Virus genome (UHGV): UHGV-0824332
DNA: 38,403 nucleotides
DNA from: a virus
Strand: one strand, 5' to 3'
A model generated the notes under the pieces. The model had not been told where the DNA came from, did no database searches, and saw only the letters and a program-made list of their open reading frames with translations. The position numbers were made by a program, and so were the translations under genes. Shown in pieces: positions 21,530 to 36,042 of the stretch (positions are counted from its first letter, which is position 1; every line of letters starts with the position of its first letter).

Positions 21530-21822
21530 TCCTGTTCACTGGCCTCTTTGGCCATCTTCAAATACTGTTCAGGGCAATGCGCCATAACGCGCTGAAACAG
21601 TTCCAGCGCCAGATTGCGTTGCCCCTCATTAAATGCCATTGCCATAGCATCCATCGGAGAGATAGCGGAAAACACCCGGCCTTTCTCCAGCACCGACCAG
21701 ACAACGCGACGCCCCTGTTCACTGCTCATGACAAAGCGAATGTCATCAATTTCACGCTGTGCCATGTCACGTTGCTTACGGGCGTTTTCTTCTTTCAGTT
21801 GATCGTCTTCGTAATCTGTCAT
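21526..21822 (-). CDS. Hypothetical protein between portal and scaffold
   Basis: 98 aa, start/stop overlaps with neighbours. Confidence 0.5.
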   Translation of the reverse strand: MTDYEDDQLKEENARKQRDMAQREIDDIRFVMSSEQGRRVVWSVLEKGRVFSAISPMDAMAMAFNEGQRNLALELFQRVMAHCPEQYLKMAKEASEQE

Positions 21823-23498
21823 TGTGATTGCCCACCCTGACCACTAAATGCATTCGCCATAGCTGACAAAACACTCGGATCCGAAGTTTTAGCTTCGCTT
21901 AGCGTCTTGGCACCCTGTGCCGCCGCCATCCCCATCGCCATCATTTGTTGCTGCTGTTGTTGCTGTGCCCGTTGCTGGCGAGCCTGCTCAACCTGTTCCT
22001 GCGGAACAATGACGGTTGGAGACACTCCGGACATATCAGCGAATGCATCGATCGCCTGATCAACGTTGAGTTTGTCGAGAGCTTCTGGTTTCGCTTGCGC
22101 AAGTTGACCAATGAAGTTGACCGTGGATGCCAGACTGGACAGGCCGATAGACTTCTGCGCCTGAGCCATGACGGAAATGTATTCGACCTTCAGGGGCATA
22201 CCTTCCATCGCGTCAGGTGGTGGCGGCAGCATGTTTTTACGCACCATCATCGAGAAAGCGCGGTCAATGAGAGGATTAAGACATTCGTCGTTCAGACGCT
22301 CCAGAACCGGCCCCAACATCAGAAGTTTTTCTTCTTTCATTTCGATCACCGCTTCAACAGGCATCGAGCGGGTATTGATGTTCTGCAACATCATGAACAG
22401 ATCGACAAAGTAGGCGCTGTTAATGATTTGACGAGTGTCCTGAATGTCTGCCACCAAATCTGCTGTACTGGGGTTAACCAGATAAGCAGGCCTGAAACTA
22501 TCCTGACCAGTAATCTGATCGATATACGTGATGTCGCCAGGAAGAAGGGAGGCACGCTGATTCTTGAGGGAAGTCGGAGCAATCATCGGCGGATTGGTGG
22601 CTTTATCAATCAACTGCGACTTGCGCTTCTGGAGAAGCTGCAATGCCTTAACAGGTCCAAGCGCCAGCATACCCGGGCATGATGATCCATAAACATCTTC
22701 GCCGTTAACTTCCCAGCGCGGAGCCATAATTGGAAACTCATCGAATCCGGACTCACGCAACAACTTGTCGTTATCGCCACCAACCTCGTAATAAACCGAT
22801 TTGAATGGCTTGTTCTTGCTATCCAGCTTCGATGTATCGCGGTCAATGTTCGGGTAAACCGAATGCATCACTTCAATCCACTTCTCGTAGGTGCCGCTTT
22901 CCCACATGCTTTTTACGGATTCGCTGACGTTATTTAGCCCGAACTCCTGAACAAGCTGACGAACAGTCATAGAGAACTTGCGAAAACAGGTGTCCACACT
23001 GCCACGAGGTGAGTTAGCTAGGTAGTAACTGCCTATCGGGAATGGCATTGTGCGAATGATGTCCTCATCATCCTCCAGTACCGCCATTGCACCGGTGCTG
23101 TATGTGCCGAGGCTTCCATATAACTGCGGCAGCGACTGATAGAGATTCGACTTATTGAACATATCGTTCATGCGGTTCTGCACGGCCTCAAGCCACAACT
23201 TAACAGGGCCATAATCCATCATTTCAGGATCTGGCGTAGCCAGGCGAAACCACGGACGCGCGGGGCTTGTGATGCCTGACATCATGCCGCTGGCGAGAGT
23301 GCGCGCCGCCATAGTCCCGGTCGAATCAATAATGCGTGTATTGCGTCGATCGTTACGGTTGACCTCAGAAGTCAGAAAGCGGGAACCACGCGGGTTGATG
23401 TAATCACTCAACTCGCGCCAGTGCGGCTCGAACGACTGACGCTCGCTTTCAAGTTGTGCGAACTGTTTGTTCAATCGCTCTTTAGTTGTTTCCGCCAT
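21819..23498 (-). CDS. Portal (head-to-tail connector) protein
   Basis: 559 aa with Gln-rich C-terminal tail; follows terminase module. Confidence 0.85.
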   Translation of the reverse strand: MAETTKERLNKQFAQLESERQSFEPHWRELSDYINPRGSRFLTSEVNRNDRRNTRIIDSTGTMAARTLASGMMSGITSPARPWFRLATPDPEMMDYGPVKLWLEAVQNRMNDMFNKSNLYQSLPQLYGSLGTYSTGAMAVLEDDEDIIRTMPFPIGSYYLANSPRGSVDTCFRKFSMTVRQLVQEFGLNNVSESVKSMWESGTYEKWIEVMHSVYPNIDRDTSKLDSKNKPFKSVYYEVGGDNDKLLRESGFDEFPIMAPRWEVNGEDVYGSSCPGMLALGPVKALQLLQKRKSQLIDKATNPPMIAPTSLKNQRASLLPGDITYIDQITGQDSFRPAYLVNPSTADLVADIQDTRQIINSAYFVDLFMMLQNINTRSMPVEAVIEMKEEKLLMLGPVLERLNDECLNPLIDRAFSMMVRKNMLPPPPDAMEGMPLKVEYISVMAQAQKSIGLSSLASTVNFIGQLAQAKPEALDKLNVDQAIDAFADMSGVSPTVIVPQEQVEQARQQRAQQQQQQQMMAMGMAAAQGAKTLSEAKTSDPSVLSAMANAFSGQGGQSQ

Positions 23499-23512: not shown

Positions 23513-23719
23513 TTACTGACCAAGTAGCGTTTTACCGCTGGTATTAGCGGTTGATGTGTCGCCCTGAGAACCGGTAAGCAGCGTAGAACTACGACCAGCA
23601 GCAGCGCGACGGCGACGTGTTTCTTCGTCGCGGGCATCAACAACGGCGGCATCCTGCTCCTGTGGTGCTGCCTGAACTTCTGGTGTTGCAGGCACTGATG
23701 GTGAGCTACCCATGCACAT
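23513..23719 (-). CDS. Hypothetical small protein upstream of portal
   Basis: 68 aa; ATG preceded by GGAG. Confidence 0.4.
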   Translation of the reverse strand: MCMGSSPSVPATPEVQAAPQEQDAAVVDARDEETRRRRAAAGRSSTLLTGSQGDTSTANTSGKTLLGQ

Positions 23720-23809
23720 ATCAATGACTCCGTACGCAATTAAATTATTACCAATTTAACCACATATGATTTATTTATCGTAGATAATTGACATTTAACG
23801 CACGAGTTA

Positions 23810-23824
23810 TTACCTTTCAGGTAG
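23810..23824. promoter_or_regulatory. Operator-like site C, TTACC-TTTCA-GGTAG, with -35-like TTGACA at 23788..23793
   Basis: Family palindrome (one half-site mismatch) in divergent intergenic region between late genes and tRNA moron. Confidence 0.4.
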
Positions 23825-23952
23825 GCAAAGAGTTCATTCCGGTTATTAACCTGACTGGCTTGTCGTTAAATTGAACAGGTGGAGTGAGCTTTTATTTTGA
23901 GCAGTACGGCGTATGGCACATGCGCCGATAGCGGTCTGGATACGTTTAAGGG

Positions 23953-24078
23953 GTACCCTCCCTTGCTCGGGCAAACGAACCAGGTAGCCGGAATGTGCAA
24001 GTCGAGCGGTTTTATTCCGCGCACGGGGATTCACCATCCCGGCGATTCGGTGTGACGCCTCGGAAGAGACGAGGGTAC
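23953..24078 (+). ncRNA. Candidate structured RNA or tRNA leader upstream of tRNA-Arg
   Basis: 8-bp closing helix GTACCCTC/GAGGGTAC enclosing about 110 nt with nested stems CGGAAT/ATTCCG and GGGAT/ATCCC; no convincing ORF. Confidence 0.25.
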
Positions 24079-24146
24079 AACGATGAGAGCATTTATGGAG
24101 CCGCGACAAAGTGTGGCGCCTTAACAGGCTAAGTGCTCTCAGCGTT

Positions 24147-24223
24147 GTGGCATTAGCTCAGTTGGACAGAGCAACCGCCTTCTAAGCGGTTGGTTGCAGG
24201 TTCGAATCCTGCATGCCACGCCA
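24147..24223 (+). tRNA. tRNA-Arg, anticodon UCU
   Basis: Acceptor stem GTGGCAT/ATGCCAC, D-arm GCTC..GAGC, anticodon loop CTTCTAA, T-arm GCAGG-TTCGAAT-CCTGC, encoded CCA. Confidence 0.85.
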
Positions 24224-24266
24224 GAATCACGCCTAAGGACCGTGATGCCAGAAGTTCCAGGTGCTT

Positions 24267-24309
24267 GGCGGTGACAGTTTCCCTTGAAGGACTATCACCG
24301 CCCTTTTTA
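24267..24309 (+). terminator. Rho-independent terminator after tRNA
   Basis: 8-bp stem GGCGGTGA/TCACCGCC then CTTTTT. Confidence 0.55.
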
Positions 24310-24386
24310 CAGCAGGACGCCATTGCGATGACTTCATGCTGTAAACCCGTACAGCCACGGAAGGCATAACTCATTGCTTCCAGTTC

Positions 24387-24410
24387 GCCCGGTTCGACGG
24401 GCATTTTTTT
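24387..24410 (+). terminator. Hairpin plus U-tract immediately upstream of the 24422 gene
   Basis: GCCCG-GTTCGA-CGGGC then ATTTTTTT, followed by RBS AAGGTGAG and ATG. Confidence 0.55.
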
Positions 24411-24421
24411 AAGGTGAGATT

Positions 24422-24778
24422 ATGAACGACCAGCAAATCGAAAAAGAAATCGTTGAGAAAGGCAAAACCGCTCCGCGAGTTACGCCTCAATATATCGAAA
24501 GCATCATTCTTGAAGAGCATTTCTTTACTGCTTATGACGGCATTCGTGCTGCCAATATGGGCGTTGGCGATACGTGGACAGCGCATAAATCTACAGACCT
24601 CCTTACTTTCTGCGTACTGGTGCTGAAGAATGGCTTCACCGTCACCGGAGAGAGCGCATGTGCAAGCCCGGAAAACTTTGATGCAGAAATTGGTCGGAAG
24701 ATTGCCAGGCAGAATGCTGTAAACAAAATCTGGATGCTTGAAGGTTACTTGCTGAAGCAGAAGTTAAGCGAGCAATAA
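24422..24778 (+). CDS. Conserved small phage protein (possibly N4 Gp49 / Sf6 gp66 family), function unknown
   Basis: 118 aa, strong RBS; family assignment from memory only. Confidence 0.5.
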   Translation: MNDQQIEKEIVEKGKTAPRVTPQYIESIILEEHFFTAYDGIRAANMGVGDTWTAHKSTDLLTFCVLVLKNGFTVTGESACASPENFDAEIGRKIARQNAVNKIWMLEGYLLKQKLSEQ

Positions 24779-24798: not shown

Positions 24799-24825
24799 AG
24801 CCAGCCTATGAGCTGGCTTTGTTTT
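24799..24825 (+). terminator. Hairpin plus T-run between gp49-like gene and terminase large subunit stop
   Basis: AGCCAGC-CTATG-GCTGGCT then TTGTTTT. Confidence 0.45.
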
Positions 24826-24868
24826 ATCCTCACCAGAGGATATCAACGACATTATCCCCACCAGCGGA

Positions 24869-26344
24869 TTAAGCATAGGGATCGTAATCTGTAATGGCCT
24901 TGCCTTGCTGGTTCTGCTGACCTGGAATTCGCAGACGCTTCGACACAGGGAAAGCAAACGTCAGCAATAGCGCATCGCCTTTACCCGGCGAACGCCCAAG
25001 CCGCTCCTTGATATCTTCCTTCGGTTCGATAACGATTTTACCGTCCACTCGAACTTTGTACTCTGCCGCCGACAGGTCGTCCGCTGTTTCCTGGTCATCA
25101 AGCATCCCGCCCAGCCTCAGCCATGTCTTGCATGAGTTGAACATCTCCCCACGCTTGTTGAGCATCTGCGGGTCAGTAGACGCGCCACCGAACGGAACAA
25201 GTTGCCATGTGCGCCCCCAACCGTCACCGATTGACTTCAGACCGGTACCGTAACCAAAGTCGATGAACACTGCGTCAGCCTGATACAGGTCTTCAAAATC
25301 AGCGATACGCTTCGCCATAATCAGATCGTCGGTAGTCTTGTTGCCAGTCCACAGCACCTTACTGTGTAGCCCCTGCCGCAGGTATATCACCGCGTCATCA
25401 ACGCCTGAATATGCCGGGTCAACACCGATTATCACCGGAGCATGTGCAACCTGCGCAGCGGTTACCACCCGTTTCATTGCCTCGTCAGTAAGACCGGTAG
25501 GGATAAACTGCAATTCAGATGCATCAGGGAATATGCCGCGCACACGGATTTTAACGAAGTCGCTGTCTTCCCCGTAGTCATCAACCCATTTCTGCAACTG
25601 CTGTTTGTTAGTGCCTTCCACCGTCCGGCTGTCAATCTGCGCACACTTCCAGCGGTGTTTGTACTTGCGGAAACATTCACGGAAACGCCCGGTGTTACGC
25701 GTCGGGTTCCCGAACGCCACCCAGATGATTTCGGTGTCTTCGTCCGTCAGCGCACCCTCTGCTACCTCCCACACCAGATCGGCAATGTTCGACGCTTCAT
25801 CGAATACCACGATGATGCGTTTGCGCTCGTTGTGTAGTCCGGCGAATGCCTCAGTGTTGTGCTCAGACCAGGGTATTGCGTCAGCCCGCCATCGCTTGTC
25901 GTGCCCTGGGTCATTGCTGTACATCGCGGTAGCGGTACAGGTAAACCAGTCTTTCGTGATAGCAAGGTTCGACCACTTGATAATTTCCGGCCAGGTCTTC
26001 GTTCGTAGCTGGTTGTCGGTGTTGGCGGTCACCACGACCTTACAATCCTCGCAAGTGGACATGCCCCAGTTGATCAGCATTGAGATGAATGCGGATTTAC
26101 CAATACCGTGACCCGAAGCACGTGCCAGCATAAGCGGCTGATAGCGCGTCTCTGGATTCTGCAGGTGATCACGTATCTCTCGGAACGCATCAGCCTGCCA
26201 CTGACGTGGGCCGGTAGCATGTGCCAGTTCAGTCCCCTCTTCCCCCCACGGGAACGCATAGAGGGCATAGCCAAGCGGATCGTGAGTGAACCCTGCAATA
26301 TCCTCGATCAACTGCTCTTCAGGAGATAACGCTGTATCTGTCAC
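24869..26344 (-). CDS. Terminase large subunit
   Basis: 491 aa with ATPase-like and nuclease-like regions; stop overlaps small-subunit gene. Confidence 0.9.
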   Translation of the reverse strand: MTDTALSPEEQLIEDIAGFTHDPLGYALYAFPWGEEGTELAHATGPRQWQADAFREIRDHLQNPETRYQPLMLARASGHGIGKSAFISMLINWGMSTCEDCKVVVTANTDNQLRTKTWPEIIKWSNLAITKDWFTCTATAMYSNDPGHDKRWRADAIPWSEHNTEAFAGLHNERKRIIVVFDEASNIADLVWEVAEGALTDEDTEIIWVAFGNPTRNTGRFRECFRKYKHRWKCAQIDSRTVEGTNKQQLQKWVDDYGEDSDFVKIRVRGIFPDASELQFIPTGLTDEAMKRVVTAAQVAHAPVIIGVDPAYSGVDDAVIYLRQGLHSKVLWTGNKTTDDLIMAKRIADFEDLYQADAVFIDFGYGTGLKSIGDGWGRTWQLVPFGGASTDPQMLNKRGEMFNSCKTWLRLGGMLDDQETADDLSAAEYKVRVDGKIVIEPKEDIKERLGRSPGKGDALLLTFAFPVSKRLRIPGQQNQQGKAITDYDPYA

Positions 26345-35019: not shown

Positions 35020-36042
35020 ATGTCTATCAATGCACTTAAGGCAGCGGCTACCGGTAACCAAGTTGCACATCATAATGAGAAACCAACAACTCTGGCCGGA
35101 CTTCTGGCAGATCCCAAAATTAAAGCTCAGATGGCTTTGGCACTTCCAAAGCACATGACAGCAGACCGTCTGGCGCGCATAGCAACCACAGAGATCCGAA
35201 AGGTTCCAAAACTTGCATCATGCGACCAAGCCAGCTTCCTGGGGGCAATTATGCAATGTGCCCAATTGGGTCTTGAACCAGGCGGAGCTCTTGGACACGC
35301 TTACCTGATACCGTTCGACAAACGCCAGAAAGTAAATGGAAGATGGGAAACCGTATCTACAGAAGCACAGCTGATTATCGGCTATCGCGGAATGATTGAC
35401 CTTGCCCGCCGCTCTGGGCAGATCCTGAGTATCTCGGCTCGTACCGTACATACAAACGACAAATTCAGCTACTCATACGGCCTGGAAGAAACGCTCGAGC
35501 ATTTACCTTGCGAAACAGGTGACCGCGGAGAATTAACGCACGTTTACGCCGTTGCACGACTGAAAGATGGCGGAGTCCAATTTGAAGTTATGAGCCGGGC
35601 AGACGTTGAGAAAGTTCGTGCACTGAGCAAAGCCGGTAGCAGTGGCCCATGGGTTGATCACTTCGATGAGATGGCTAAAAAAACAGTAATTCGCCGACTG
35701 TTCAAATATCTTCCTGTTTCTATTGAAATGCAGAAGGCTGTTGTTATGGATGAGCGCGCTGAAGCTGGACTTAGCCAAGATAACGCAGCTGTTATCACTG
35801 GTGAATATTCCGTAGTTGACGATGAGCGTCAACACCTATCGCCAATTTCAGATTCAGAACGAGAAGAAGCTCGAGAATATATCATCGCGATACTTAATAG
35901 CCTGGATCCATCTGCTGAAGATGCAAAAACGATGTTCAAGCGCGCTGAAAATGAAATTAACACTATGGCTGAAAAGCTCGGTGATGAATATCACCAAAAA
36001 TTCATGATGACGCTTAACGATATGCGTCCAGAATTCGAGTAA
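35020..36042 (+). CDS. RecT-family single-strand annealing protein
   Basis: 340 aa with RecT-like core (LIIGYRGMIDLARRSGQ) directly downstream of the exonuclease. Confidence 0.85.
   Translation: MSINALKAAATGNQVAHHNEKPTTLAGLLADPKIKAQMALALPKHMTADRLARIATTEIRKVPKLASCDQASFLGAIMQCAQLGLEPGGALGHAYLIPFDKRQKVNGRWETVSTEAQLIIGYRGMIDLARRSGQILSISARTVHTNDKFSYSYGLEETLEHLPCETGDRGELTHVYAVARLKDGGVQFEVMSRADVEKVRALSKAGSSGPWVDHFDEMAKKTVIRRLFKYLPVSIEMQKAVVMDERAEAGLSQDNAAVITGEYSVVDDERQHLSPISDSEREEAREYIIAILNSLDPSAEDAKTMFKRAENEINTMAEKLGDEYHQKFMMTLNDMRPEFE

What the first reader, a model, noticed from the sequence alone, without database searches (positions are those of the whole stretch)
23953..24078. Candidate structured non-coding RNA
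An 8-bp helix (GTACCCTC at about 23953-23960 pairing with GAGGGTAC at about 24071-24078) closes roughly 110 nt containing at least two further perfect stems (CGGAAT/ATTCCG and GGGAT/ATCCC). Only a weak, Arg-rich antisense ORF overlaps it. Flanking inverted repeats recall retron msr/msd architecture, but no reverse transcriptase is nearby.
Basis: seen in the sequence. Interest (0 to 1): 0.45.

Follow-up and report, generated by a model that had tools for sequence, protein, structure and literature searches.

The report
Conserved phage leader RNA, undescribed family
The flagged hairpins lie inside a longer, highly conserved, pseudoknotted non-coding RNA that many temperate enterobacterial phages (phiV10-like, P1-like, many lambda-like prophages) place at the start of an early transcript, ahead of terminators; it is in no RNA-family library I could search and most likely lets RNA polymerase read through those terminators.

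Summary
Its 8-bp "closing helix" is no better than chance and is not conserved, and its boundaries are wrong.

The real feature is a + strand RNA of about 240 nt. The core is 23905-24082 and a 3' hairpin module runs to 24146, ending exactly at a tRNA-Arg(UCU) gene. A covariance model finds one copy in each of more than 100 distinct phage or prophage loci. Four helices covary: 93% of cells are paired against 29-47% for slid controls, and 15 of 24 pairs carry double changes. A loop-to-junction pseudoknot has one compensatory pair, and a 19-nt block is invariant. No reading frame is conserved. Rfam 15 has nothing, and the RNA is not detectably related to HK022 put RNA.

It occurs in three settings:
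- between portal and terminase in phiV10-like phages;
- after tRNA-Ile and before ban in P1-like phages;
- 25-45 nt downstream of the repressor-controlled pL in lambdoid prophages that lack an N gene. This is the slot that nutL or putL occupies elsewhere.

A conserved strong terminator usually follows. My best reading, about 0.4, is a cis-acting, put-like antitermination leader. The main rival is a processed, stable non-coding RNA acting in trans. That the RNA family is real is near certain; its function is inferred.

The parts
23788..23816 (+). Candidate sigma-70 promoter of the unit: TTGACA (23788-23793), a 17-nt spacer, TACCTT (23811-23816).
   Evidence: Read. The consensus scan missed it because the -10 matches only 3 of 6. 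The same TTGAC[AC]-N17-TACCYT arrangement recurs upstream of the element in many Uetakevirus loci, and 74 of 135 unique upstream regions hold a TTGAC[AC]-N16-18-TAnnnT match. Inferred, not mapped.
23826..23899 (+). Upstream hairpin module X1, degenerate in this window. The 5' strand is about 23826-23840 and the 3' strand GGAGTGAGCTTTT is 23881-23893. It holds the conserved GTCGTTAAAT insert and has a weak GU-rich tail.
   Evidence: By comparison with Tyrion L013 2353-2432 (AAAGCGCGCUUC...GUCGUUAAAUC...GGAGCGCGCUUUCAGGUGUG) and other Uetakevirus loci. The 3'-strand motif clusters within -100..0 and +100..+1000 of the core.
23905..24082 (+). Core of the conserved RNA family (match to covariance model R1). 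It contains the whole first-stage finding.
   Evidence: cmsearch gives 127 bits, E about 1e-36. Covariation is shown.
23907..23927 (+). P1 hairpin: CGGCGUAU (23907-23914) pairs with AUGCGCCG (23920-23927); the loop GGCAC is invariant.
   Evidence: 8 bp, 97% of cells paired. G-C to A-U double changes occur in 32 of 80 sequences at one pair, and there are many G-U pairs.
23936..23983 (+). P2: a long hairpin of variable length. The outer helix is CUGG (23936-23939) with CCAG (23980-23983). The tip carries a CUCCCUUG (UCCUU-type) motif.
   Evidence: The outer pairs covary: C-G in 46 sequences and U-A in 33; CCAC/GUGG in L122 and L042.
23983..24001 (+). Invariant block GGTAGCCGGAATGTGCAAG.
   Evidence: Invariant in all 14 homologues found by BLAST and in the seed alignment. 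An exact match is present in at least 120 IMG/VR contigs.
24002..24025 (+). P3 region: a variable hairpin, here GCGG (24006-24009) with CCGC (24017-24020).
   Evidence: Sequence and length differ between clades. It was not modelled.
24026..24040 (+). P4 hairpin: GGGA (24026-24029) pairs with UCCC (24037-24040); the loop is UUCACCA.
   Evidence: 98% of cells paired, and 3 of 4 pairs show double changes (GGGA/UCCC, ACGC/GCGU, UUGA/UCAA, GCGA/UCGC).
24032..24052 (+). Pseudoknot: P4 loop CACC (24032-24035) pairs with GGUG (24049-24052) in the conserved junction GGCGAUUCGGUGUGAC.
   Evidence: Found by a mutual-information scan. 99.4% of cells are paired against 21-66% when slid. C-G changes to A-U in 11 distinct sequences, probably one or two evolutionary events.
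24058..24074 (+). P5 hairpin: CCUCG (24058-24062) pairs with CGAGG (24070-24074); the loop is GAAGAGA.
   Evidence: 97% of cells paired, and 4 of 5 pairs show double changes (CCUGG/CCAGG, GCCGG/CCGGC, CCCGG/CCGGG).
24085..24150 (+). 3' module X2: the stem is GAGAGCAUU (24085-24093) with AAGUGCUCUC (24131-24140), enclosing two small variable hairpins. The conserved GU-rich tail AGCGUUGUGG follows, and its last four bases are the first four of the tRNA.
   Evidence: The stem covaries between clades (GGAAAAGGCG/CGCCGUUUCC in L071, AAGCGCACUCC/GGAGUGCGCUU in L052) while the tail GUUGUGG is kept.
24147..24223 (+). tRNA-Arg (anticodon UCU), co-oriented with the leader RNA and directly abutting it.
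   Evidence: Rfam gives 73 bits and ARAGORN agrees.
24267..24308 (+). Terminator T1: GGCGGUGACAG...CUAUCACCGCC followed by C and U5, with a UCCCUUGAAGG loop.
   Evidence: -18.8 kcal/mol. The homologous hairpin (GGCGGU...ACCGCC-U run, with a covarying middle stem and a UCCUU loop) follows the element in lambdoid and Uetakevirus loci. It has a weak, sub-threshold DicF resemblance.
24387..24410 (+). Terminator T2: GCCCGGTTCGACGGGC followed by AT7.
   Evidence: A second terminator about 100 nt after T1 recurs in Uetakevirus loci.
24422..24778 (+). 118-aa ORF (phrog_322; N4 Gp49 / Sf6 gene 66-like, function unknown). It is the only protein gene of the + strand unit.
24799..24826 (+). Terminator-like hairpin T3 that ends the + strand unit before it meets the 3' end of the terminase gene.

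Best explanation
The finding is a fragment of a roughly 240-nt non-coding leader RNA on the + strand: core 23905-24082 plus a 3' hairpin module to 24146. It is probably transcribed from the promoter at 23788-23816, together with the abutting tRNA-Arg(UCU).

The RNA has five helices (P1-P5), a pseudoknot between the P4 loop and the following junction, and a 19-nt invariant block. It belongs to a family that is absent from Rfam 15 and from the literature I could search. The family is carried in single copy by phiV10/epsilon15-like podophages, P1-like phage-plasmids and many lambdoid prophages of Enterobacterales.

Most likely mechanism, inferred and not shown: the nascent RNA folds behind RNA polymerase and acts in cis, alone or with host Nus factors. 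It makes that polymerase resistant to the terminators that follow (T1 and T2 here; the conserved T1 in lambdoid pL leaders). The downstream genes are then expressed only from transcripts that start at the proper early promoter. That makes it a functional analogue of HK022 put RNA with an unrelated, larger fold.

Shown: the family, its structure, its non-coding nature, its strand, and its position relative to promoters, operators, terminators and tRNAs. Inferred: transcription start, binding to polymerase, and antitermination.
For: The family is real and structured.
- R1 scores 105-170 bits in every homologous locus.
- On 80 distinct sequences 93% of cells are paired against 29-47% for slid controls, 15 of 24 pairs have double changes, and 0 of 500 shuffles reach the observed values.
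- The pseudoknot has a C-G to A-U exchange.
- Abundant G-U pairs fix the + strand.
- No frame is open in most members, and lengths fall in all three classes mod 3.

Position.
- Of 154 unique loci, 74 lie downstream of and co-oriented with CI-like repressors of many immunity types (27-100% identity).
- In mEp460 two OL operators (TTGC-N7-GCAA, the same type as at OR) and a promoter lie about 40 nt upstream of P1.
- L052 shares the HK022 OL/PL region almost base for base and diverges at the transcript start, where HK022 has putL and L052 has this element.
- put lies just downstream of PL and acts without protein factors (PMC9378689).

Terminators.
- A conserved strong hairpin plus U-run (T1, -17 to -25 kcal/mol) lies between the element and the first gene in lambdoid and Uetakevirus loci.
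- 71% of loci have at least one terminator within 1 kb in sense, against 38% in antisense.
- In lambdoids no protein gene lies between pL and T1, so early-left expression needs read-through.

No phage partner protein.
- The first downstream ORFs are not N-like and differ between contexts.
- mEp460 has no annotated N.
- put and this element were never found in the same locus.

Consistent with action at a distance: cargo of variable length (a tRNA or nothing) sits between the element and T1.

Host range is narrow, Enterobacterales only, as for put.
Against: - No experiment or transcript data were available, so function rests on position alone.
- There is no detectable homology to put: R1 finds nothing in four put loci at E up to 10, and a putL BLAST does not touch this family.
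- In the Uetakevirus setting, processive read-through would also defeat T3 and run antisense into the terminase gene.
- P1-type loci have no predicted terminator between the element and ban, and there the element is not promoter-proximal: it starts 14 nt after tRNA-Ile.
- T1 travels with the element as one conserved cassette. That fits 'RNA gene plus its own terminator' at least as well.
- Only one copy per phage was found, and none in the pR operon, unlike HK022 with putL and putR.
- The boxA-like look of the X2 3' strand is not universal.
Confidence: 0.42

Rival explanations
1. It is a stable, processed non-coding RNA that acts in trans on a host or phage target. The leader is cut out of the primary transcript by tRNA-processing enzymes: RNase P at the 5' end of tRNA-Arg here, and 3' processing of tRNA-Ile in P1. 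Alternatively it ends at its own terminator T1. It then works as a free RNA, for example through the two pyrimidine loops of UCCUU type (anti-Shine-Dalgarno-like) in P2 and T1, or by binding a host protein.
For: - The RNA directly abuts a tRNA in two of the three contexts: tRNA-Arg begins inside the conserved GUUGUGG tail, and P1 tRNA-Ile ends 14 nt before the element. Other loci have up to five tRNAs upstream or a tRNA about 475 nt downstream.
- In Uetakevirus it forms a self-contained unit of promoter, RNA and terminator on the strand opposite the structural genes.
- T1 is conserved as part of the cassette, with a covarying stem, a conserved UCCUU loop and a U-tail. This is the usual 3' module of Hfq-type small RNAs, and it weakly resembles DicF.
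- The extreme conservation of single-stranded blocks fits recognition of a conserved host partner.
Against: - In 74 of 154 unique loci it sits between the repressor-controlled pL and the early-left genes with no intervening promoter evident. An efficient terminator there would silence the operon.
- P1-type copies have no T1.
- No target complementarity was identified.
- The tRNA-like closure downstream of X2 is limited to one clade.
Confidence: 0.3
2. It is a conditional attenuator, riboswitch-like or T-box-like. The core would be a sensor domain for a metabolite, a tRNA or a host factor, and its state would decide whether T1 terminates.
For: - The architecture is aptamer-like: variable peripheral helices (P2, P3) around invariant junctions, plus a pseudoknot.
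- A conserved terminator lies downstream.
- The invariant P4 loop UUCACCA ends in ACCA like a tRNA 3' end, and it pairs with GGUG. This recalls T-box to tRNA acceptor pairing, a resemblance from memory only.
- It is associated with tRNA genes.
Against: - The distance from core to T1 varies from about 170 to more than 450 nt, sometimes with a whole tRNA in between. No alternative pairing between core and T1 was found, unlike normal expression platforms.
- P1-type members lack T1.
- No Rfam riboswitch or T-box match was found even at E up to 10.
Confidence: 0.12
3. It is a nut-type site for a protein antiterminator. The boxA-like 3' strand of the X hairpins plus a hairpin would recruit NusB/NusE and a phage N-like protein.
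For: - The X2 3' strand and tail (AGUGCUCUUUCCGUUGUGG in several members) resemble rrn boxA (UGCUCUUU...) followed by a GU-rich boxC-like tract. The boxA and boxC consensus sequences are from my own knowledge.
- mEp390 and mEp460 come from the mEp coliphage collection, which its authors describe as Nus-dependent (PMC11893012).
Against: - No N-like gene was found downstream or anywhere annotated in mEp460.
- The three host phage types share no obvious protein.
- The boxA-like sequence is replaced by an unrelated sequence with compensating changes in L071 and L052, so the stem is what is conserved, not boxA.
- No X module was seen in the pR operon.
Confidence: 0.08
4. It is a retron-like msr/msd RNA, a protein-coding gene, or chance hairpins or a DNA-level site.
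For: Flanking 8-bp inverted repeat. An 87-aa antisense ORF.
Against: - No reverse transcriptase was found in any context.
- The inverted repeat is not conserved and occurs in 22% of shuffles.
- No frame is open in most members.
- Compensatory changes and G-U pairs show selection on RNA pairing on the + strand.
Confidence: 0.02

Closest known systems
HK022 put RNA (putL/putR), the cis-acting polymerase-utilization antiterminator RNAs of HK022, HK75, O276, HK639, phiEt88 and some P22-like phages
   Same: - It occupies the same genomic slot: immediately downstream of the repressor-controlled PL, before terminators and the early-left genes. In L052 it literally replaces putL behind an HK022-type OL/PL.
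- No dedicated phage protein is evident.
- Both are restricted to Enterobacterales phages.
- There is a short local resemblance of P1 (ACGGCG...CAUGCGUCG..AGCG) to put stem I.
   Different: - No detectable homology by covariance model or BLAST.
- It is about 170-240 nt with five helices and a pseudoknot, against about 70 nt with two stems (PMC9378689).
- There is one copy per phage rather than L and R copies.
- It also occurs outside lambdoid phages (P1, Uetakevirus) and next to tRNA genes.
- Antitermination activity is untested.
Lambda-type nut sites and rrn antitermination leaders (boxA, boxB, boxC)
   Same: It sits in the leader of an early or untranslated transcript. A hairpin is followed by a boxA-like and GU-rich tract in some members. 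mEp390 and mEp460 belong to a collection described as Nus-dependent (PMC11893012).
   Different: There is no N gene. The boxA-like sequence is not conserved across the family. The large invariant core has no counterpart in nut or rrn leaders.
Large phage-associated structured RNAs that sit next to tRNA genes (GOLLD, ROOL)
   Same: It is a prophage-borne, highly structured non-coding RNA of unknown biochemical function, often adjacent to tRNAs. The GOLLD and ROOL properties are from my own knowledge.
   Different: It is much smaller. Rfam models of those families do not match. The host range is Enterobacterales. It has a fixed position behind pL in lambdoid phages.
DicF (Qin prophage small RNA from the dicB early operon)
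   Same: The T1 hairpin region downstream of the element (24256-24303) aligns weakly with the DicF model. Like DicF, it lies in a prophage early-operon leader.
   Different: The score is 14.7 bits against a gathering score of 48. The resemblance concerns T1 only, not the finding itself.

Membership tests
HK022-type put RNA | Sequence and structure homology to putL/putR (two-stem RNA of about 70 nt) | tested here: not met
   R1 finds no hit at E up to 10 in HK022, UPF_BP1, S9-5 or HK639 put loci. A putL BLAST finds 21 phage records, none carrying this element. The fold has five helices plus a pseudoknot.
HK022-type put RNA | Located just downstream of an early promoter (PL/PR), upstream of terminators | tested here: met
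   mEp460 has OL operators and a promoter about 40 nt upstream. In L052 the element starts at about +24 of an HK022-type PL. T1 lies downstream. This is not met in P1-type loci.
HK022-type put RNA | Acts in cis on RNA polymerase (beta' zinc-binding domain) to suppress pausing and termination without protein factors | not testable with these tools
   Needs reporter or in vitro transcription assays and rpoC mutants.
Lambda-type nut site | boxA plus boxB recognised by a phage N protein encoded in the same operon | tested here: not met
   No N-like ORF was found. The boxA-like tract is not conserved.
Retron msr/msd | Adjacent reverse transcriptase gene and conserved flanking inverted repeats | tested here: not met
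   The neighbours are portal, tRNA, a Gp49-like ORF and terminase. The inverted repeat is not conserved and is at chance level.
Any Rfam 15 family | Match to a curated covariance model | tested here: not met
   At gathering threshold over the whole window, only C4, isrK and tRNA match. At E up to 10 on 23700-24450, nothing overlaps 23905-24146.
tRNA / tmRNA | Cloverleaf or tmRNA architecture detectable by ARAGORN or Rfam | tested here: not met
   Only the adjacent tRNA-Arg is found, and nothing in the element itself, here or in 17 homologous loci.
Riboswitch / T-box leader | Sensor domain whose 3' part overlaps an alternative terminator/antiterminator pairing | tested here: inconclusive
   The architecture is aptamer-like. 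However, the spacing to T1 is variable and long, and no alternative pairing was found.
Protein-coding gene | A reading frame conserved across homologues | tested here: not met
   The best frame is open in 29 of 80 sequences, and lengths fall in all classes mod 3.

The most novel reading that the evidence does not exclude
This would be a second, structurally unrelated class of protein-independent antiterminator RNA. It would load onto E. coli-type RNA polymerase as it is made and carry it through terminators. It would be used by phage P1, phiV10-like phages, Stx2c-converting phages and other N-less lambdoid prophages, and it would double as a protected landing pad for phage tRNA genes.
Probability: 0.33. 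Interest if true: 0.85.

Novelty: new variant of a known kind. Interest (0 to 1): 0.7.

Why it matters
If the inferred function holds, put RNA would no longer be the only RNA known to reprogram bacterial RNA polymerase by itself. A larger, pseudoknotted solution to the same problem would exist in textbook phages. P1 carries it upstream of ban. Stx2c and cdt converting phages carry it at pL, where it would gate early-left gene expression.

It would give transcription researchers a new natural ligand of the elongation complex. It would explain how N-less lambdoid phages express their pL operon past a strong terminator. It would also suggest why phage tRNA genes cluster at this spot.

Even if the function is different, this is an unannotated, strongly conserved structured RNA. 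It is present in roughly one in five complete E. coli genomes (1077 of 5426 matched the query region) and in hundreds of P1-like plasmids. It deserves a family entry and an experiment.

Tried and rejected
- **Rfam.** The whole window at gathering thresholds and the region at E up to 10 gave nothing on the element.
- **Single-sequence folding.** z = -0.86 on the + strand and -2.3 on the - strand. This is uninformative, and the - strand is excluded by the G-U pairs.
- **Homology to put.** The eye-catching match of P1 to put stem I did not survive a covariance-model search or BLAST.
- **Second copy near pR, by analogy with putR.** None was found in the 22.5-kb right part of mEp460 or in any locus. 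The only double hit (L032) is a decayed remnant next to an inserted gene.
- **N-like partner protein.** None was found.
- **boxA reading of the X hairpins.** This was weakened by L071 and L052, where the stem sequence is replaced with compensation.
- **tRNA-like domain after X2.** A 7-bp closure GUGGUGA/UCACCAC exists in the mEp460 clade only. T-arm-like GGTTCGAATCC pieces occur in some X2 inserts, but ARAGORN calls no tRNA.
- **Partner for the P2-loop UCCUU motif.** P5, the invariant CAAG and the P5 loop were tried; none covaries with it (reading).
- **C1 operator (Op72) next to the P1 copy.** None within 3 mismatches.
- **Literature.** Keyword searches and searches for the literal sequence found no description. 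King et al. 2011 (PMC3187212) is not held.
- **Hit in a Stellaceae MAG.** It is a chance pattern match, 14.8 bits.

Full report
**What the window is.** The 701 bases around the finding are 97-98% identical to phiV10, TL-2011b and other epsilon15-like (Uetakevirus) E. coli phages. The finding lies in a short + strand insert between two - strand structural genes: portal (21819-23498) and large terminase (24869-26344) (annotations of relatives). The insert also holds a tRNA-Arg(UCU) at 24147-24223, two terminators and a 118-aa ORF of unknown function.

**Checking the observation.** The 8-bp helix GTACCCTC/GAGGGTAC is not remarkable: an 8-bp inverted repeat at that spacing turns up in 22% of shuffles and in 56 of 255 tiles of the window. 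The fold energy of the + strand is ordinary, z = -0.86. Rfam has no family there even at E up to 10. On the single sequence alone the finding would be weak.

**Conservation far beyond this phage type.** BLAST showed that window 23906-24150 is conserved at 70-83% identity in quite different phages.
- P1, P7, D6, SJ46 and hundreds of P1-like plasmids carry it.
- Lambdoid phages mEp460, cdtI, 2H10, Stx2c- and some Stx2a-converting phages and mEp390 carry it.
- Klebsiella and Enterobacter phages and a phage deposited as a Stenotrophomonas phage carry it.
- Annotators placed no consistent gene on it. Depending on the record it is 'none', or a hypothetical ORF on one strand or the other.

An alignment of 15 copies shows long invariant blocks separated by helices of variable sequence. 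The exact 19-mer GGTAGCCGGAATGTGCAAG occurs in at least 120 IMG/VR contigs. A two-block pattern occurs in species representatives of 24 Enterobacterales, plus one MAG binned as Bacillota that is probably contaminated; a Stellaceae hit is spurious. About one in five complete E. coli genomes matched the query region.

**Structure.** I built a covariance model (R1) from 20 diverse compact members with hand-assigned helices. It finds exactly one strong hit (105-170 bits) in each locus. In the window the hit is 23905-24082 at 127 bits.

On the resulting alignment of 80 distinct sequences, 93% of cells are standard pairs, against 29-47% when the 3' partners are slid. Fifteen of 24 pairs carry changes on both sides, and no shuffle reaches the observed scores. 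That alignment is fitted to the model. The independent MAFFT seed alignment gives the same picture: 91% against 31-54%.

The helices in window coordinates are:
- P1, 23907-23914 with 23920-23927, invariant loop GGCAC.
- P2, outer pairs 23936-23939 with 23980-23983, tip of variable length.
- P3, variable.
- P4, 24026-24029 with 24037-24040, loop UUCACCA.
- P5, 24058-24062 with 24070-24074, loop GAAGAGA.

A mutual-information scan revealed one more interaction. The P4 loop CACC (24032-24035) pairs with GGUG (24049-24052). C-G is exchanged for A-U in 11 sequences (99% of cells paired), although that is probably only one or two evolutionary events.

Frequent G-U pairs would be C-A mismatches on the other strand, so the RNA is on the + strand. 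No reading frame is open in most members, and lengths fall in all classes mod 3, so it is not a gene for a protein.

The closing helix joins a clade-specific P2 tip to the 3' strand of P5. CGGAAT/ATTCCG joins the invariant block to the variable P3.

**Flanking modules.** Downstream of the core comes a hairpin, X2, at 24085-24140. Its stem sequence differs between clades with compensation, and it is followed by a conserved GU-rich tail (A)GCGUUGUGG. In the window the last four bases of that tail are the first four of tRNA-Arg. A similar hairpin with tail precedes the core in Uetakeviruses (degenerate here, 23826-23899). Another follows the terminator in some lambdoids. The motif is almost confined to the neighbourhood of the core.

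In some members the X 3' strand looks like rrn boxA followed by a boxC-like tract, but this is not universal. A conserved terminator T1 (GGCGGU...ACCGCC plus a U run, with a covarying middle stem and a UCCUU loop) follows in lambdoid and Uetakevirus loci. In the window T1 is at 24267-24308, T2 at 24387-24410, and a third terminator lies after the ORF.

**Where the element sits.** Of 154 unique loci, 74 are lambdoid, 53 are Uetakevirus-like and 18 are P1-like.

In the lambdoid loci the element is always downstream of, and co-oriented with, a CI-like repressor gene. These repressors are of many immunity types (27-100% identity).
- In mEp460 a cI terminator, two OL operators of the same TTGC-N7-GCAA type as at OR, and a promoter lie about 40 nt upstream of P1. 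A -21 kcal/mol terminator lies between the element and the first early-left ORF.
- L052 has OL/PL nearly identical to HK022 and diverges exactly at the transcript start. HK022 continues with putL; L052 continues with this element.
- The first downstream ORFs are not N-like and differ between lineages. mEp460 has a Q but no annotated N.
- mEp390 and mEp460 belong to the mEp coliphage collection, which its authors describe as Nus-dependent (PMC11893012).

In P1 the element starts 14 nt after tRNA-Ile and ends about 100 nt before ban, with no terminator predicted. Other loci carry up to five tRNAs just upstream, or a tRNA about 475 nt downstream.

A promoter of the type TTGACA-N17-TACCYT is conserved upstream in Uetakeviruses. 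In the window it is at 23788-23816.

**Most likely mechanism.** In lambdoid phages the slot just behind pL and ahead of the first terminator is where antitermination signals live: nutL in N phages, and putL in HK022-like phages (PMC9378689). Here that slot is filled, across many immunity types, by one invariant structured RNA. No protein gene lies between pL and a strong terminator, so early-left expression requires read-through, and the only conserved candidate for the signal is this RNA.

The same cassette works in podophages and in P1 without any shared phage protein that I could see. This points to host machinery only: RNA polymerase, possibly with Nus factors. The variable distance and cargo between core and terminator fit an action that persists along the template. 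I therefore rank a cis-acting, put-like antitermination leader first, at about 0.4.

This is inference from position. It is not homology: R1 finds nothing in four put loci and putL finds nothing here.

Several points count against it:
- P1 copies have no terminator and are not promoter-proximal.
- In Uetakeviruses full processivity would send antisense transcripts into the terminase gene.
- T1 travels with the element like the terminator of an RNA gene.

**Rivals.**
- A stable RNA excised by tRNA-processing enzymes and acting in trans, about 0.3. This would explain the tight abutment to tRNAs, the self-contained unit of promoter, RNA and terminator in Uetakeviruses, the conserved T1 with a small-RNA-like 3' end, and the two UCCUU loops. 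It sits awkwardly with the pL position.
- A ligand- or tRNA-sensing attenuator, about 0.12. This fits the aptamer-like architecture but not the long, variable spacing to T1.
- A nut-type site for a protein, about 0.08. It lacks the protein.
- Retron, coding and chance readings are excluded as far as sequence can show.

**Novelty.** I found no Rfam family, no annotation in GenBank or RefSeq records, and no paper in the held library, including searches for the literal sequence. Subscription literature is not covered, and King et al. 2011 could not be read.

I class it as a new variant of a known kind. It is a phage early-leader RNA that occupies the place and probably does the job of put, with an unrelated and larger fold and a wider set of host phages. 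That the family is a real, structured, non-coding RNA I hold at about 0.95. The function remains to be tested.

Noticed in passing
window 5666-5848 (+): Rfam finds isrK (5666-5742, 74.7 bits) and a C4 antisense RNA (5761-5848, 78.6 bits) side by side. This is a P1/P7/P22 ImmI-type antirepressor control region in this phiV10-like prophage.
   Followed up: no
window 24256-24308; L001 about 3384-3430; L013 about 3016-3061: The terminator T1 downstream of the element is itself conserved across lambdoid and Uetakevirus loci: the base GGCGGU/ACCGCC, a covarying middle stem, and a loop with UCCUU, the same pyrimidine motif as the P2 loop. Its region gives a weak sub-threshold DicF match, 14.7 bits against 48. 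What the UCCUU loops pair with or bind is unexplained.
   Followed up: partly
L032 3992-4154 and 4799-4959 (- strand): This is the only locus with two copies. The downstream one has mutations in the otherwise invariant blocks and is separated from the intact one by an inserted antisense ORF. It looks like a remnant of module exchange.
   Followed up: partly
L009 (BUCT554) about 2680-2760; L010 (SPN1S) and L006 (Stx2a_1447) downstream of the core: The variable insert inside X2 contains T-arm-like pieces (GGGTTCGAATCCC, CTGGTTCAATTCCAG), as if fragments of tRNA genes were captured there. ARAGORN calls no tRNA.
   Followed up: partly
L001 (mEp460) 3237-3372: Where the window has tRNA-Arg, the mEp460 clade has a 7-bp closure GUGGUGA...UCACCAC. 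A D-arm-like hairpin sits right after the 5' strand and another hairpin right before the 3' strand, followed by AACA. It may be a degenerate tRNA-like domain. It is seen in one clade only.
   Followed up: partly
L004 (P1) 1728-1775: A 14-codon ORF (MPIISDIQHAWVEC) lies between the element and ban. Its stop overlaps the ban start (TAATG), which suggests translational coupling.
   Followed up: no
window 35127-35265 (-): A weak R1 hit, 9.2 bits, E = 0.25. It is most likely noise.
   Followed up: no
L159 (MAG binned as Bacillota, 1.7-kb contig) and L141 (Stellaceae MAG): L159 carries a full-scoring copy (157 bits) on a tiny contig, probably an enterobacterial phage contig mis-binned into the MAG. 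The L141 hit is a chance pattern match at 14.8 bits.
   Followed up: partly
L007 (phage vB_SmeS_BUCT708, deposited as a Stenotrophomonas phage): Its copy of the element and its flanks are near-identical to Klebsiella and Enterobacter prophage versions (L047, L102, L104, L125). Every other member is from Enterobacterales, so the recorded host may deserve a check.
   Followed up: no
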